Assembly: GCF_054482595.1 (NCBI RefSeq) | Contig: NZ_JBTHVH010000001.1 | DNA length: 64,000 nucleotides | Reading direction: 5' to 3' (one strand) | Source: a plasmid | Shown: positions 18,001-21,000 of the stretch, in pieces | How positions within the stretch are numbered: the stretch's first letter is position 1 | How the letters are laid out: every line of letters starts with the position of its first letter | Position numbers: made by a program

Positions 18001-21000
18001 TATGCCAACGTTCAAGCCGCAGAGGCCGTAAAATCTGGTCGTATGAGACTGGATAAGGGTAATGAAACTATTGAGGAAGCGTCGAAAATCCCTGTAGGGA
18101 TTAACTCCGCAGGTCAATGGAAGGTGATGAGTAAGGAGGATATGAAGAAAAAACTCAACCTGCACTCACCAGACCATTGGGATACATATTGTTTCGCTAT
18201 GCTGGCGGATTATGTTCCCCAGGACGAAGTGCTTAGCGTCGAAGACGAAGCGCAGGTTGATGAAGCTCTGGCATGGCTTAATGAATGAACATTTGCTCTA
18301 ATAAATTGTGTTTTTTAACTACCGATGTTACATTGAACCTGACCTCTTGCGCCTTGAGGCATTTTCGGTTTATGCTTATCAGGCACCTCAGTAAAACGGG
18401 TGCCGGGATTGGCCTCCCGCTTAAGTCTAAGGCGATACAGACGCCGCTCGCGTCTTTTTTTTGTATCGGCGTACACGCACACCTCTACAATGGTGGGCTG
18501 TATGGGGCTACCTTCGGGTAGGCTGGTTACCTTGGACGCCAGTAAGGCCAACTCCGTACAGTCCACCGCCAGCAAGATTGGTCTCTTCTGCGGTGGTTAC
18601 ATACCAACGTCTAAGGAGGCTGCCAATATGGCTACTATCCCTACCCCAACTCATCCTGAATTTATCTGGCGCTTTTACTCCTGCCAAAAACGTCACTATC
18701 ACTTCGTTATTGCACCGACAGAAGATGAGGCACGTTCTCAGCTTCCTGACGCCCCATGTATTTTCTCTGCCCGTTTTTCCACTGATTCACGCAATTCTCT
18801 CAGTTACTGGTGCCTCCCTGTTAACGCTTCTGCTCAGGAGGGACTATGAGAACATCGTTAGTTACCCGTGAAGAGATGATCGAGGCAATTGAACAGCACA
18901 CTGCCTGTATCAGTACCAGGGATATACCAGGCGTTATTGCCAACTACTTCATGATCACCAAACAACTTTACCGGAGAAAGGACAAGAACGCGGTTCACCG
19001 TATCCTGTTGTCTGATATCCGCGAATACCTGCTCGAACAGGGTCATCTGAATTACGCAACCGTCGCAGCCGAATCACGCAAGGAGGCACACAGAATGAAA
19101 GCAACTAACGTTAAATCAGAAAAAATTCATGCACCTTCAGTTCAGGAATCGGAGCTGGTGGTTGTTCAGAATCAGTCTGATGAAATTCCCGTTCTGGAAT
19201 GGCAGGGAGTGCGTGTAGTGACAACCGAGACTCTTGCTAGAGGGTATGGGACAGAAACAATCCGTATTCGCCAAAATCATCATGAGAACAAAGTACGCTT
19301 TGTTGAAGGGAAGCACTTTTTCAAAGTTGAAGGAGAATCATTGCGCGAGTTGAAGCACAGAGTAGCTTTAAACTACTCTGTAAAAATTGCTCGCAATGTT
19401 CGCTCACTCACCCTCTGGACAGAACGCGGCGCAGCCCGCCACGCTAAAATGCTCGAAACCGATCAGGCATGGGCATTCTTTGAAAAACTGGAAGACAGCT
19501 ACTTCCGACAAAAAGAACAGCAACCGATCGCAATCCCCCAAACATTACCAGAAGCCCTACGCCTGGCTGCCGAACTGGCTGAACAAAAGCAGCTTCTGGA
19601 ACAGAAAGCCCACCAGCTAAATCAGCAGCTGGTGGCCGCCGCTCCTAAGGTCGATTTTGCCGACCGGGTATCAGTAGCTAAAGGGATCCTGATTGGGAAT
19701 TTTGCAAAGGTTGTTGGACTTAAGCAAAACGCGCTGTTTGTCTGGTTACGGGAGAACGGCATCCTGATAGCGTCCGGTGGACGTAAAAATGTGCCGTTCC
19801 AGCAGTACATCAACGCGGGGTATTTCACGGTGAAAGAAGTGGTGCTGGATGATGAAGATGGCTACCAGATACGGTTGACGCCTCAATTAACGGGTAAAGG
19901 CCAGCAGTGGTTGACGCGTAAACTGCTCGATGCTGGCTTGTTAAAACCGGTGGCGGCTGAATAATGGAAGAATGCCCGGTTGATGCCGGGCATAATTTAT
20001 TGCGCGCTTTCGGGGTTGTCGTTTACTGGCTGCCCCTTCTTGGTTTTACGGCTGCGCGTAACTGATGCGGCTGACTTAACCTTTTTCTCTTCGCGAGTGA
20101 TGGCAATTTGTTTTTTTACATTTTCAATATCTGCCAGGCGATATATTTTTGCTTGCGGCCAGCGGTCGCAGATGATCGGTTCTATGGAGTCATAAAGGCT
20201 AAATTTTGCTTTTTCGAATTCACCGTTGATGATAATTCCATCACGGAGAGTTTCATCGCAGATAAACACGCCACACAGTGGCACATGGTAACTAACTGAT
20301 TTACCATCATTGTAGTTAGGGCTACTGGAAATGTAGTGGACGCGCAGCATTGTTTCGCTAAAGCCGTGTACGCGCATACGGAATTTTTCATCCTCCGGGT
20401 ACTGCCTCATTAGCTCTTTTGTTGCTTCCAGGTTCTCTATGTATTTCGCACTGTGCTCATTGATCCCCGCGCTTTTTTGGATGCGAATGTCCTTATCAAT
20501 CAGATGAATAATGCGGCCAGCGGTCATGTTGACGCTGTTCACAGCTTCTGTCTGATAAGTTGTAACCTTGCGCACACCGCGAAGGATGTTAGGCACTGGA
20601 TATAAAATAGTCTTTGGGATATTGAGGTCTGGGTACTGTTCCAGTTCCCGCGCCATTAAAGTCCATTTATCAATTTCAGCCTGAATGCTGTCTGTTTCTT
20701 TGAACGGTAGAACGACAACCGGGCGTACAGGACGACCGTCGCTGGCGGCATCAACGTGTTGGGCGCGTGCAACAGCTTTTTTTAGAAAGAGATCCCTGAA
20801 GCTGACGAACTCCTGGTACAGTTGTTCGCCGTAGACATAATTTATCATTGATCCTCCTCCAGAATTGACATGGTCAATAACGCCCGGCTGAGAAAACCGG
20901 TCATTACTGACCTATATTATAGAGGGATCAAACAAAAATAATAGATTTATTAGTGCATTTATTGTGAGTCTAACTGGTTAGTTGTCATGAGATATTCGAT

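What the first reader, a model, noticed from the sequence alone, without database searches (positions are those of the whole stretch)
18417..18640. c4-like RNA 1: tRNA-like terminal stem, UUCG hairpin, and a loop complementary to the icd-1 Shine-Dalgarno region
18492-18571 can form a 14-bp terminal stem (GGUGGGCUGUAUGG with CCGUACAGUCCACC, two G:U pairs) followed by GCCA. That is the RNase P-substrate look known for P1 c4. Inside it is a CUACC-UUCG-GGUAG hairpin (18508-18521). The loop CCUUGGACG (18530-18538) can pair over 9 bp, one of them G:U, with CGUCUAAGG (18608-18616). That target overlaps the AAGGAGG ribosome-binding site of icd-1. A second copy of the target, GUCUAAGG, lies upstream at 18425-18432. 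This parallels the upstream a1/b1 elements described for the P1 c4 precursor.
Basis: partly seen in the sequence, partly recalled or inferred. Interest (0 to 1): 0.6.

Follow-up and report, generated by a model that had tools for sequence, protein, structure and literature searches.

The report
Second c4 antisense-RNA switch, P1-like phage
This is a genuine small antisense RNA of the well-known phage P1 "c4" family that most likely keeps an extra antirepressor operon switched off in a P1-like plasmid prophage; it is an ordinary new member of a known family, but its upstream leader shows that the Salmonella "IsrK" RNA and the P1 c4 system are the same kind of device.

Summary
The composite a+b target occurs only at the two sites flanking c4. 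Across 84 related modules, 36 b' loops and 11 a' junctions each have matching targets at fixed positions.

The RNA belongs to a complete extra immI-type module lying between pacB and c1, a place that is empty in P1 and P7:
- a C1-operator-like site
- a leader carrying a1 and b1
- an intrinsic terminator
- c4
- a2 and b2
- icd-1
- ant-1

A second, canonical module (25.1-23.6 kb, minus strand) has an orthogonal code.

The leader matches Rfam isrK. On a Gifsy-1-type contig isrK and c4-a1b1 overlap and C4 covers the published "orf45". The published compensatory mutants G28:C162 and G31:C159 are the a1:a' pairs.

Verdict: a new member of a known kind, common in E. coli P1-like plasmids. Function is inferred by homology and covariation and was not tested. 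The isrK-c4 unification is the only moderately novel by-product.

The parts
18292..18308 (+). C1-operator-like site TTTGCTCTAATAAATTG, 15 of 17 matches to the P1 operator consensus. It lies at the position of P1 Oc4 (Op51).
   Evidence: 11 such sites in the window against 0.3 expected; it aligns with the annotated P1 Oc4. C1 binding was not tested.
18306..18334 (+). Candidate C1-controlled promoter, counterpart of P1 P2c4/P51a: -35 TTGTGT 18306-11, -10 TACATT 18329-34.
   Evidence: Inferred from the alignment to annotated P1 features. It is below the threshold of the consensus scan.
18371..18376 (+). Candidate -10 box TATGCT of the leader promoter (counterpart of P1 P1c4/P51b and of PisrK). 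The predicted start is about 18383.
   Evidence: Inferred. The spacing matches family members (TACACT-N6-GCACC), and model position 1 of isrK, which is the mapped +1 of Gifsy-1 IsrK in S7 Fig of PMC4825925, aligns to 18383. It was not found by the scan.
18383..18460 (+). IsrK-type leader RNA: hairpin 1 (18383-18403), hairpin 2 (18404-18419) and an intrinsic terminator.
   Evidence: Rfam isrK at 60 bits against a cut-off of 50. Rfam c4-a1b1 also matches 18370-18423 at 20.5 bits, E = 0.005. The fold shows three hairpins.
18409..18415 (+). a1, UUGGCCU, in the loop of leader hairpin 2. It is complementary to a' over 7 bp.
   Evidence: Same position as the P1 a1 site.
18425..18432 (+). b1, GUCUAAGG, complementary to b' over 8 bp with one G:U.
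   Evidence: Same position as the P1 b1 site.
18439..18462 (+). Intrinsic terminator: stem-loop AGACGC-CGCUC-GCGUCU followed by a run of U (8 T in all, 18455-18462; the scan counts the first as the last base of the stem).
   Evidence: It is part of the isrK model. A hairpin plus a T-run at this position occurs in 84 of 84 modules, including P1 and P7.
18486..18573 (+). c4-1 antisense RNA gene (Rfam match). The predicted mature RNA starts at G18492 and ends near 18568-18571.
   Evidence: Rfam C4 at 75.9 bits, own model at 85.2 bits, fold. The 5' end is inferred from the annotated P1 c4.
18508..18521 (+). Hairpin 1 of c4, CUACC-UUCG-GGUAG.
   Evidence: All 5 pairs of this helix show compensatory changes in the family.
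18530..18538 (+). b', CCUUGGACG, in the 12-nt loop of c4 hairpin 2 (stem 18522-26 with 18539-43).
   Evidence: The loop is one of the most variable parts of c4 (1.16 bits per column; hairpin 1 varies as much, 1.27 and 1.09), while its stem is nearly invariant at 0.14.
18545..18551 (+). a', AGGCCAA, in the unpaired junction between hairpin 2 and the terminal stem.
18568..18571 (+). GCCA after the terminal stem, a tRNA-like RCCA.
   Evidence: RCCA occurs in 57 of 84 modules. RNase P processing of P1/P7 c4 is established knowledge (Hartmann 1995, cited in PMC11143913).
18563..18596 (+). Alternative hairpin CCACCGC/GCGGUGG with a2 in its loop. It is mutually exclusive with the c4 terminal stem.
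   Evidence: at least 8 compensatory pair types in the family. Its role is inferred.
18578..18584 (+). a2, UUGGUCU, complementary to a' over 7 bp with one G:U.
   Evidence: Same position as the P1 a2 site.
18608..18616 (+). b2, CGUCUAAGG, complementary to b' over 9 bp with one G:U. It overlaps the Shine-Dalgarno AAGGAGG (18613-18619).
   Evidence: Same position as the P1 b2 site.
18628..18849 (+). icd-1, 73 aa, Icd-like cell-division inhibitor. Its stop overlaps the ant-1 start (ATGA).
   Evidence: NCBIfam NF033153 at 49.8 bits; 80% identical to P1 Icd.
18846..19964 (+). ant-1, 372 aa antirepressor with ORF6N and KilAC/ANT domains.
   Evidence: Pfam; 56% identical to P1 Ant1 and 65% to the window's Ant-2.

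Best explanation
Window 18486-18573 encodes a c4-family antisense RNA (c4-1). It is the repressor of an extra immI-type antirepressor operon (leader, c4-1, icd-1, ant-1) that a P1-like plasmid prophage carries between pacB and c1.

Proposed mechanism:

1. Transcription starts near 18383, with an additional C1-controlled promoter next to the operator at 18292-18308.
2. Most transcripts stop at the intrinsic terminator (18439-18462). This gives a short leader RNA of about 78 nt of the IsrK type that carries a1 and b1.
3. Read-through transcripts contain c4-1, which is cut out: the 5' end at G18492 by RNase P, helped by the 17-bp stem and the GCCA tail.
4. Free c4-1 pairs through a' (junction) and b' (hairpin-2 loop) with a2 and b2 on the mRNA. 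b2 covers the ribosome-binding site of icd-1, so icd-1 is not translated.
5. ant-1 is translationally coupled to icd-1 (ATGA overlap), so no antirepressor is made and C1 repression holds.
6. The a1/b1 copy in the leader competes for the same c4 surfaces. An excess of leader RNA, or of target transcripts after C1 loss, would titrate c4-1 and turn on Icd and Ant.
7. The a/b code of c4-1 is orthogonal to that of the canonical module 2. The phage therefore carries two independent immunity specificities.

Shown here: family membership, structure, all six complementary elements, their covariation, the gene content and the orthogonality.

Inferred: the promoters, processing, repression, coupling and the decoy role.

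My estimates: c4-1 is a real C4-family RNA gene, about 0.95. It represses icd-1/ant-1 by b':b2 and a':a2 pairing, about 0.8. The leader acts as a released decoy or activator, about 0.5.
For: Family and structure:

- Rfam C4 at 75.9 bits and isrK at 60 bits, both above their gathering scores.
- The MFE fold equals the model structure, with a' and b' unpaired.
- On 14 diverse members 97.8% of cells are paired and 13 of 27 pairs have compensatory changes. Slid controls reach at most 53%.

Layout:

- It is collinear with the annotated P1 immI: Oc4, two promoters, a1, b1, c4, a2, b2, icd, ant1/2.
- The composite a+b targets occur only at the two flanks of c4.

Covariation across 84 unique modules:

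- There are 36 b' loops and 11 a' junctions.
- Cognate b1, a1, a2 and b2 lie at about -60, -76, +5 and +35 from the ends of the model match.
- Mean cognate helix scores are 8.45 and 9.28 for b1 and b2, against 5.2 for non-cognate combinations. Fewer than 1% of non-cognate combinations reach the cognate median.

Orthogonality:

- The b' loop of c4-1 against the b1 and b2 flanks of its own module: -12.4 and -13.9 kcal/mol. Against those of module 2: -6.6 and -5.3.
- The reverse direction, c4-2 on module 1 targets, is equally weak.

Genes:

- icd-1 is Icd-like.
- ant-1 has a KilAC domain and is 56% identical to P1 Ant1.
- The ATGA overlap is read directly from the sequence.

Experimental anchor in a homologous module, Gifsy-1:

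- Rfam isrK, c4-a1b1 and C4 all hit the Gifsy-1-type contig L132.
- The published compensatory pairs G28:C162 and G31:C159 fall in a1 and a'.
- IsrK supplied in trans raises antirepressor translation more than 100-fold.
- An RNA of about 80 nt is processed from the read-through transcript.

Other support:

- The P1 mechanism and RNase P processing are established knowledge, cited in PMC8198154 and PMC11143913.
- The module is intact and at least 99% identical in 108 complete E. coli records.
Against: - There are no expression, processing or repression data for this locus. Everything functional is by homology.
- The promoters fall below the consensus scan, and the operator has 2 mismatches.
- The leader's own fold is not more stable than shuffles, z = -0.66.
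- The single 9-nt target is not rarer than chance.
- Both b1 and b2 carry a G:U against b', and a2 carries one against a'. Pairing is therefore slightly weaker than a perfect match.
- Gifsy-1 authors saw stronger, not weaker, toxicity when an 'orf45' fragment was co-expressed with IsrK. That fits a c4-repressor model only if the fragment, which lacks the first 12 nt of c4 and keeps a2/b2, acts as a sponge. This is my reinterpretation and is untested.
- The same frame is translated in Gifsy-1, as shown by an SPA tag. The region may therefore also be read by ribosomes.
Confidence: 0.85

Rival explanations
1. c4-1 works mainly as a transcription-termination factor, like phage P4 CI RNA. By pairing with a1/b1 on the nascent leader it would enforce, or relieve, termination at 18439-18462. 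It would then control read-through into icd-1/ant-1 rather than block translation. This could also act in addition to the translational block.
For: - a1 and b1 lie immediately upstream of an intrinsic terminator; b1 ends 6 nt before the stem.
- A hairpin plus T-run at this place is universal in the family.
- The Gifsy-1 authors themselves raised the P4 CI analogy for STnc1160.
Against: - b2 overlaps the Shine-Dalgarno sequence in essentially all modules, as in P1, where translational repression is the accepted mechanism (annotation).
- In Gifsy-1, IsrK in trans changed transcription 8-fold but translation 139-fold.
Confidence: 0.2
2. The functional product is a small protein, not an RNA. This would be the frame that starts at AUG 18490 (the 'orf45'/Ash-like frame), or the longer frame 18400-18849, translated as a leader peptide or as an N-terminally extended Icd.
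For: - AUG 18490 is in frame with icd-1 with no stop between them.
- Pfam Phage_ASH matches this frame at 39.6 bits, and PGAP annotates an 'ash family' pseudogene here.
- Gifsy-1 orf45-SPA was seen on Western blots.
- The AUGGUGG frame has fewer stops than the other two frames: 13, 28 and 34 of 37 classes.
Against: - The frame is closed by stops in 13 of 37 specificity classes.
- There is no Shine-Dalgarno sequence before AUG 18490.
- The Gifsy-1 authors found the nucleotide sequence conserved but not the amino-acid sequence.
- The variation pattern is that of an RNA: compensatory pairs, and loops that covary with targets.
- The Ash match spans a terminator tail, c4 and an SD. That is what a protein model built on a conserved RNA gene would look like.
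Confidence: 0.07
3. Module 1 is an inactive relic of recombination: a duplicated immI copy whose RNA is no longer made or no longer matters, because the canonical module 2 does the work.
For: - It is an insertion that P1 and P7 lack.
- icd-1 and the ends of ant-1 are near-duplicates of module 2.
- The promoters are weak by consensus.
Against: - All six RNA elements are intact and mutually complementary, with a private code: a1 G-to-C is matched by a' C-to-G relative to the common AUUGGCG/ACGCCAA.
- Both ORFs are intact.
- The module is at least 99% identical in 108 complete E. coli records. It also occurs in phages 673R5, RCS47 and JL22.
Confidence: 0.05

Closest known systems
P1/P7 immI operon: c4 antisense RNA with a1, b1, a2, b2 targets, icd, ant1/2 (Rfam C4 RF01695 and c4-a1b1 RF03163)
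   Same: - Same order and spacing of operator, leader with a1/b1, c4, a2, b2 over the SD, icd and ant.
- Same three-helix c4 fold, with b' in the hairpin-2 loop and a' in the junction.
- Icd is 80% identical, and Ant shares its N- and C-terminal parts.
- An operator-like site lies at the same place.
   Different: - Different a/b code: b' CCUUGGAC and a' AGGCCAA, against P1 UCACUAAC and CUGUCAA.
- The hairpin-2 loop is 12 nt rather than 11, and the tail is GCCA rather than ACCU.
- The terminator is strong (8 T) where P1 has a weak one (5 T).
- The leader scores as isrK (60 bits), not c4-a1b1 (20.5 bits).
- Ant has an ORF6N middle domain.
- The module lies between pacB and c1 rather than next to kilA-repL.
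- The RNA part is about 80% identical to Stx-phage loci. P1 and P7 were not among the 40 listed matches to this stretch in the distant search (97 records matched in all), whereas they match module 2 at about 86-90%.
Gifsy-1 IsrK - orf45 (STnc1160) - anrP locus of Salmonella (Rfam isrK RF01394; Hershko-Shalev 2016, PMC4825925)
   Same: - Same leader: two hairpins, a1 in the second loop, b1, then an intrinsic terminator.
- A c4-type RNA follows about 26 to 30 nt downstream, then a2 and b2 over the SD of an antirepressor operon.
- The AUG of 'orf45' is the AUG of AUGGUGG at the c4 5' end.
   Different: - Gifsy-1 has no icd. b2 sits in front of anrP directly, and 'orf45' overlaps c4.
- The codes differ: Gifsy-1 has b' CGGUGAU and a' ACGCCAA.
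- The regulator context is lambdoid, not P1 C1.
- The published model does not invoke a trans-acting c4 repressor and never mentions P1 c4. Equating the two is my inference.
Phage P4 CI RNA with seqA/seqC targets
   Same: It is a small RNA processed from the leader of the operon it controls, with complementary sites both upstream and downstream of itself (as described).
   Different: P4 CI causes premature transcription termination rather than occluding the SD. No sequence comparison with P4 was made here.
pacB-c1 insertion of P1-like phage-plasmids (RCS47, pTZ20_1P, JL22, vB_EcoM-673R5)
   Same: Same insertion site and gene content. Venturini 2019 describes it as 'two short hypothetical orfs and an antirepressor'.
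   Different: - RCS47, D6 and JL22 carry other codes: a' GUCUCAA with b' loops UUCCCUUUGACG or UUCCCUUUUGCG.
- The RNA genes are not annotated in those records.

Membership tests
C4 antisense RNA (Rfam RF01695) | Covariance-model score at or above the curated gathering score | tested here: met
   75.9 bits against 45, full-length match 1-87, E = 4.7e-13.
C4 antisense RNA (Rfam RF01695) | Long terminal stem enclosing two hairpins, the first with a stable tetraloop | tested here: met
   The MFE equals the model structure. Across 14 members 97.8% of cells are paired and 13 of 27 pairs are compensatory.
C4 antisense RNA (Rfam RF01695) | Two unpaired segments (a', b') complementary to a2/b2 downstream, with b2 over the ribosome-binding site of the first gene | tested here: met
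   a' 18545-51 with a2 18578-84; b' 18530-38 with b2 18608-16, which overlaps AAGGAGG. Covariation across 40 specificity classes.
C4 antisense RNA (Rfam RF01695) | A second copy of the targets (a1, b1) upstream in the same transcript | tested here: met
   a1 18409-15 and b1 18425-32. The composite motif is unique in the window, 0.04 expected.
C4 antisense RNA (Rfam RF01695) | Lies upstream of an antirepressor operon (icd-ant in P1) | tested here: met
   icd-1 matches NF033153, and ant-1 has KilAC.
C4 antisense RNA (Rfam RF01695) | Excised from a precursor, with the 5' end made by RNase P | not testable with these tools
   Only substrate-like features were seen: a 17-bp stem plus GCCA and RCCA in 57 of 84 relatives.
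C4 antisense RNA (Rfam RF01695) | Represses translation of the downstream genes in trans | not testable with these tools
   Inferred from complementarity and covariation only.
P1 immI operon | C1 operator controlling one of two promoters | tested here: inconclusive
   An operator-like 17-mer with 2 mismatches lies at the homologous place. The promoter hexamers are weak. No binding data exist.
isrK (Rfam RF01394) | Covariance-model score at or above the gathering score; three hairpins, the last an intrinsic terminator | tested here: met
   60 bits against 50, model positions 1-77. Terminator found by the scan. Fold.
isrK (Rfam RF01394) | The short terminated RNA activates translation of the downstream antirepressor operon in trans | not testable with these tools
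   Shown only for Gifsy-1.
c4-a1b1 (Rfam RF03163) | Covariance-model score at or above the gathering score | tested here: not met
   20.5 bits against 46.7, E = 0.005, at 18370-18423. Module 2 (55.5 bits) and the Gifsy-1-type contig (48.1 bits, overlapping isrK) do pass. The element is the same kind, but this copy belongs to the isrK-type branch.
Ash protein family (Pfam PF10554) | A translated protein matching the profile | tested here: inconclusive
   The frame 18400-18846 scores 39.6 bits against 26. However, the matched stretch is terminator tail, c4, a2/b2 and the SD, and the frame is closed in 13 of 37 classes.

The most novel reading that the evidence does not exclude
The IsrK-type leader is released at its terminator as a trans-acting anti-c4 decoy. 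Each module would then be a two-RNA switch, antisense c4 against sponge leader, addressed by a short a/b code. Prophages sharing a code could silence or induce each other's antirepressors. A P1-like phage carrying two orthogonal codes, one of lambdoid/Stx-phage type under a P1 C1 operator, would gain double heteroimmunity and an RNA-level line of cross-talk with resident lambdoid prophages. A corollary is that Gifsy-1 'orf45'/STnc1160 is a c4 repressor and that the Pfam Ash family is largely the shadow of this RNA gene.
Probability: 0.3. Interest if true: 0.6.

Novelty: new member of a known kind. Interest (0 to 1): 0.35.

Why it matters
For this window the result means that the extra antirepressor operon of a widespread group of E. 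coli P1-like plasmid prophages has its own RNA repressor with a private address. That bears on prophage stability, superinfection immunity and induction of elements that often carry resistance genes.

More generally, the locus links three descriptions that are kept apart in databases and papers:
- P1 c4 with its a1/b1 targets
- Salmonella IsrK with 'orf45'/STnc1160
- the 'Ash' protein family

If the link holds, the detailed Gifsy-1 mutational data become direct evidence for a1:a' pairing in the c4 family. The role of the upstream target copy, long unexplained in P1, would also get a testable answer: a decoy released by a terminator. In addition, the RNA gene is annotated as a protein pseudogene in at least one RefSeq record, and an 'ash family protein' feature lies under the match in all 15 listed records.

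Tried and rejected
- **Promoter scan.** The consensus scan of 18150-20100 found no promoter upstream of the leader or of c4. The promoters are therefore proposed only by alignment to P1 and to the family.
- **TACAAT at 18486-91.** With TTGTAT 19 nt upstream it would start transcription inside c4. I rejected it as a c4 promoter by reading the sequence.
- **Other ORFs.** Mechanical ORFs over the region (18285-18521 plus strand, 18315-18575 minus strand, 18508-18702 minus strand) have no Pfam match.
- **Out-of-frame query.** My first Pfam query for icd-1 used 18629 and was out of frame. I repeated it with 18628.
- **Gifsy-1 source.** Gifsy-1 is not in the phage collection. I took the sequence from S7 Fig of PMC4825925. 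The machine-read text lacks one G, which explained a 1-nt numbering offset. This was resolved with contig L132.
- **24B_1.** The Stx-phage small RNA 24B_1, proposed to repress an antirepressor, is encoded downstream of lom and is unrelated to this locus.
- **Leader fold stability.** Thermodynamic stability of the leader as evidence: z = -0.66, not informative.
- **Single target rarity.** Rarity of the single b target: not significant.
- **ORF across c4.** Selection for an open frame across c4: only weak and confounded by shared ancestry.
- **Primary P1 papers.** Citron and Schuster 1990, Hartmann 1995, Riedel 1993 and Lobocka 2004 are not held. P1 facts rest on the GenBank annotation and on secondary citations.
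Full report
**1. Observation**

- The stem arms are 18492-18505 and 18554-18567, 14 bp with two G:U.
- GCCA is at 18568-18571.
- CUACC-UUCG-GGUAG is at 18508-18521.
- The loop CCUUGGACG is at 18530-18538.
- Its complement CGUCUAAGG is at 18608-18616 and overlaps AAGGAGG.
- The upstream copy GUCUAAGG is at 18425-18432.

Both proposed tests passed. Rfam C4 (RF01695) matches 18486-18573 over its full length at 75.9 bits, against a gathering score of 45 (E = 4.7e-13). 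The minimum-free-energy fold of 18480-18580 is the proposed structure. It has a 17-bp terminal stem, the UUCG hairpin, and a second hairpin whose loop holds the antisense segment (-41.6 kcal/mol, z = -2.5).

The 9-nt target on its own is not rarer than chance, with 10 matches in the window against 12.3 expected. AGGCCAA (18545-18551), in the unpaired junction of c4, pairs with UUGGCCU (18409-18415) upstream and with UUGGUCU (18578-18584) downstream. The composite target TTGGYYT-N(5-12)-GTYYRRGG occurs only at 18409-18432 (0.04 expected). With a spacer of 15-30 it occurs only at 18578-18616 (0.11 expected). These two sites flank c4 on its own strand.

**2. Context**

The window is a P1-like plasmid prophage with pacA, pacB, c1, coi and cre. 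P1 and P7 cover only about 43% of 17800-20800. The stretch between pacB and c1 is an insertion shared with phages vB_EcoM-673R5, RCS47 and JL22. The literature notes it only as "two short hypothetical orfs and an antirepressor" (PMC6906374).

The insertion is a complete immI-type module and is collinear with the annotated P1 operon. In order it contains:
- a C1-operator-like 17-mer at 18292-18308, with 15 of 17 matches (11 such sites in the window against 0.3 expected)
- a leader carrying a1 and b1
- c4
- a2 and b2
- icd-1 at 18628-18849 (NF033153 at 49.8 bits, 80% identical to P1 Icd)
- ant-1 at 18846-19964 (ORF6N and KilAC domains, 56% identical to P1 Ant1), whose start overlaps the icd-1 stop (ATGA)

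A second module lies on the minus strand: a1b1 25148-25096, c4 25027-24942, icd-2 and ant-2. It is the canonical P1/P7-type immI at 86-94% identity.

**3. The leader is IsrK**

Rfam isrK (RF01394) matches 18383-18460 at 60 bits, against a cut-off of 50. The match covers two hairpins, a spacer and an intrinsic terminator made of the stem-loop 18439-18455 and a run of 8 T at 18455-18462, the first of which the scan counts as the last base of the stem. a1 sits in the loop of the second hairpin and b1 lies in the spacer. The same stretch also matches Rfam c4-a1b1 below threshold (20.5 bits, E = 0.005).

From 18384 onward the RNA part is about 80% identical to loci in many Stx-converting phages, where it precedes Rha-type or antirepressor genes. 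It is only 67-77% identical to RCS47 and D6. Module 1 is therefore a mosaic. It combines a P1-type operator region, a lambdoid-type leader and c4, a P1-type icd, and an ant with an exchanged middle domain.

**4. Family-wide test of the mechanism**

A scan of viral contigs for the leader hairpin returned 120 loci. I built a covariance model from 14 diverse c4 sequences. On that alignment 97.8% of cells are paired and 13 of 27 pairs show compensatory changes, while slid controls reach at most 53%. The model found 110 c4 copies.

In 84 unique modules there are 36 different b' loops and 11 different a' junctions. Every one has cognate b1, a1, a2 and b2 at fixed positions, about -60, -76, +5 and +35 from the ends of the model match.
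- Mean cognate helix scores are 8.45 (b1) and 9.28 (b2), against 5.2 for non-cognate combinations.
- Fewer than 1% of non-cognate combinations reach the cognate median.
- For the a sites the scores are 7.0 against 4.9.

Variation is high in the b' loop (1.16 bits per column) and in hairpin 1 (1.27 and 1.09), while the stem that presents the loop is nearly invariant at 0.14. This is the signature of a specificity code, and it is the strongest evidence that pairing with both target sets is functional.

The window's code is b' CCUUGGAC with a' AGGCCAA. Among the sampled loci it is shared only with 673R5 and two contigs, one of which also carries module 2. It includes a compensatory change relative to the common AUUGGCG/ACGCCAA pair.

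The window's two modules are orthogonal.
- The b' loop of c4-1 against the b1 and b2 flanks of its own module gives -12.4 and -13.9 kcal/mol. Against those of module 2 it gives -6.6 and -5.3.
- The b' loop of c4-2 against its own flanks gives -8.9 and -11.9. Against those of module 1 it gives -5.4 and -3.7.

**5. Link to Gifsy-1**

Hershko-Shalev et al. (PMC4825925) described IsrK as a short terminated RNA. Its read-through transcript carries "orf45" and the antirepressor gene anrP.
- IsrK supplied in trans raises anrP translation more than 100-fold.
- "orf45" is conserved in nucleotide sequence but not in amino-acid sequence.
- It is processed to an RNA of about 80 nt, STnc1160.
- The paper compares this RNA with P4 CI RNA and never mentions P1 c4.

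Their S7 Fig sequence and a contig containing it (L132) show that "orf45" starts at the AUG of AUGGUGG, the 5' end of a c4 RNA. On L132 Rfam finds four families: isrK (79.3 bits), c4-a1b1 (48.1 bits, overlapping isrK), C4 (70.5 bits) and isrJ.

With that sequence their numbering fits exactly. G28 and G31 lie in a1 (AUUGGCGU), and C162 and C159 lie in a' (ACGCCAA). Their compensatory mutants are thus an experimental demonstration of a1:a' pairing in a module homologous to the one in this window. a2 (AUUGGCG) and b2 (AUCACCG, in front of GGAGG and the anrP AUG) are also present.

In the searchable library I found no paper that equates IsrK with the a1/b1 leader or STnc1160 with c4. One paper lists both RNAs in APSE phages as unrelated. 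Absence from that library is not proof of novelty.

**6. How it most likely works**

Shown here:
- family membership and structure
- the six complementary elements and their covariation
- the terminator, the gene content and the orthogonality of the two modules

Inferred from P1 (GenBank annotation; PMC8198154; Hartmann 1995 as cited) and from Gifsy-1:
- Transcripts start near 18383, and from a C1-controlled promoter next to the operator.
- Most of them end at the terminator as a leader RNA of about 78 nt.
- Read-through transcripts yield c4-1 after RNase P cleavage before G18492. The 17-bp stem followed by GCCA resembles a tRNA acceptor end, and RCCA is present in 57 of 84 relatives.
- c4-1 binds a2 and b2, masks the icd-1 ribosome-binding site, and through translational coupling prevents Ant-1 synthesis, so C1 repression holds.
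- The leader copy of the targets competes for c4. Leader excess, or a burst of target transcripts when C1 fails, would flip the switch.

A hairpin plus T-run lies about 24 nt before c4 in all 84 modules, including P1 and P7. The released-leader design may therefore be general.

A further conserved element is an alternative helix. The 3' arm of the c4 terminal stem (CCACCGC, 18563-69) can pair with GCGGUGG (18590-96), which puts a2 in a hairpin loop. This helix excludes the c4 fold and shows at least eight compensatory pair types in the family. Its role is inferred, for example presenting a2 or gating processing.

**7. Rivals**

- *P4-CI-like control of termination at the leader terminator.* This is plausible as an added layer. 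However, b2 on the SD is universal, and Gifsy-1 data show mainly a translational effect.
- *A protein product from the frame starting at AUG 18490.* This frame is in frame with icd-1, matches Pfam Phage_ASH at 39.6 bits, and is called an "ash family" pseudogene by PGAP. The frame is closed in 13 of 37 specificity classes and lacks an SD, and the variation pattern is that of an RNA. Translation in some members, such as Gifsy-1, is not excluded.
- *A dead relic.* The intact private code argues against this, as does at least 99% conservation in 108 complete E. coli records.

**8. Comparison and novelty**

c4-1 meets every testable defining feature of the C4 family and of isrK. It fails the c4-a1b1 gathering score, which reflects a family split in Rfam rather than a different element.

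It is a new member, a new specificity allele, of a known kind. It sits in an insertion already noted at the protein level, and a routine Rfam scan detects it. That makes the finding itself ordinary.

Two by-products are of moderate interest. The first is the evidence that isrK and c4-a1b1 describe the same leader and that Gifsy-1 "orf45"/STnc1160 is a c4 RNA. The second is that a Pfam family and PGAP annotations appear to translate this RNA gene.

Expression, processing, repression and the decoy role all remain to be shown for this locus.

Noticed in passing
window 23624-25228, minus strand: A second, canonical P1/P7-type immI module: operator-like site 25228-25212, a1b1 25148-25096, c4 25027-24942, icd-2 24894-24673, ant-2 24676-23624. 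It lies about 0.6 kb from cre/cra rather than next to kilA-repL as in P1. The arrangement is 100% identical in 8 plasmids and is also present in contig L074.
   Followed up: partly
L132 2895-3093 (Gifsy-1-type contig) and window 18370-18460: Rfam isrK (no clan) and c4-a1b1 (clan CL00128) hit overlapping sequence, and C4 lies 26 nt downstream. The published Gifsy-1 'orf45'/STnc1160 is a C4 RNA, and the IsrK mutants G28 and G31 lie in a1. The two Rfam families appear to describe one element.
   Followed up: yes
window 18457-18663, plus strand (frame of 18400-18846): Pfam PF10554 Phage_ASH scores 39.6 bits (cut-off 26) on the translation of terminator tail, c4, a2/b2, the SD and the first icd codons. 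PGAP annotates an 'ash family protein' pseudogene at the equivalent of 18502-18603 in pAPEC201602. This is probably a protein model built on an RNA gene.
   Followed up: partly
L027 9709-11108; also L022, L048, L055, L059, L072, L119: Lambdoid contigs carry two or three c4 modules about 650 nt apart, each with a different a/b code. In L027 the a' junctions are UACGCCAA, AGUUCCAA and ACUGCGAA. What lies between the copies was not examined.
   Followed up: no
window 18563-18596, plus strand: An alternative hairpin, CCACCGC/GCGGUGG, has a2 in its loop and is mutually exclusive with the c4 terminal stem. It is conserved, with at least 8 compensatory pair types across the family.
   Followed up: partly
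window 18628-19964 compared with 23624-24894: icd-1 and icd-2 differ in their first 9 codons and then by a single residue. Ant-1 and Ant-2 share about 85 N-terminal residues and the KilAC C-terminus, but the middle differs (ORF6N only in Ant-1). The two modules look like one operon with exchanged regulatory and central cassettes.
   Followed up: partly
window 3110, 3159, 5251, 14986, 18292, 20943, 21407, 21490, 25212, 34586, 38436: Eleven matches to the P1 C1 operator consensus with at most 3 mismatches, against 0.3 expected. One lies upstream of each c4 module, in the orientation of that module.
   Followed up: partly
window 25371-26171, plus strand: An MBL-fold metallo-hydrolase gene, not a P1 gene, is transcribed divergently from the module 2 control region (annotation of identical plasmids).
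   Followed up: no
window 18490-18627, plus strand: The AUG at the 5' end of c4-1 is in frame with icd-1 with no stop, so it could give a 46-residue N-terminal extension. No Shine-Dalgarno sequence precedes it. The frame is closed in 13 of 37 family classes.
   Followed up: partly
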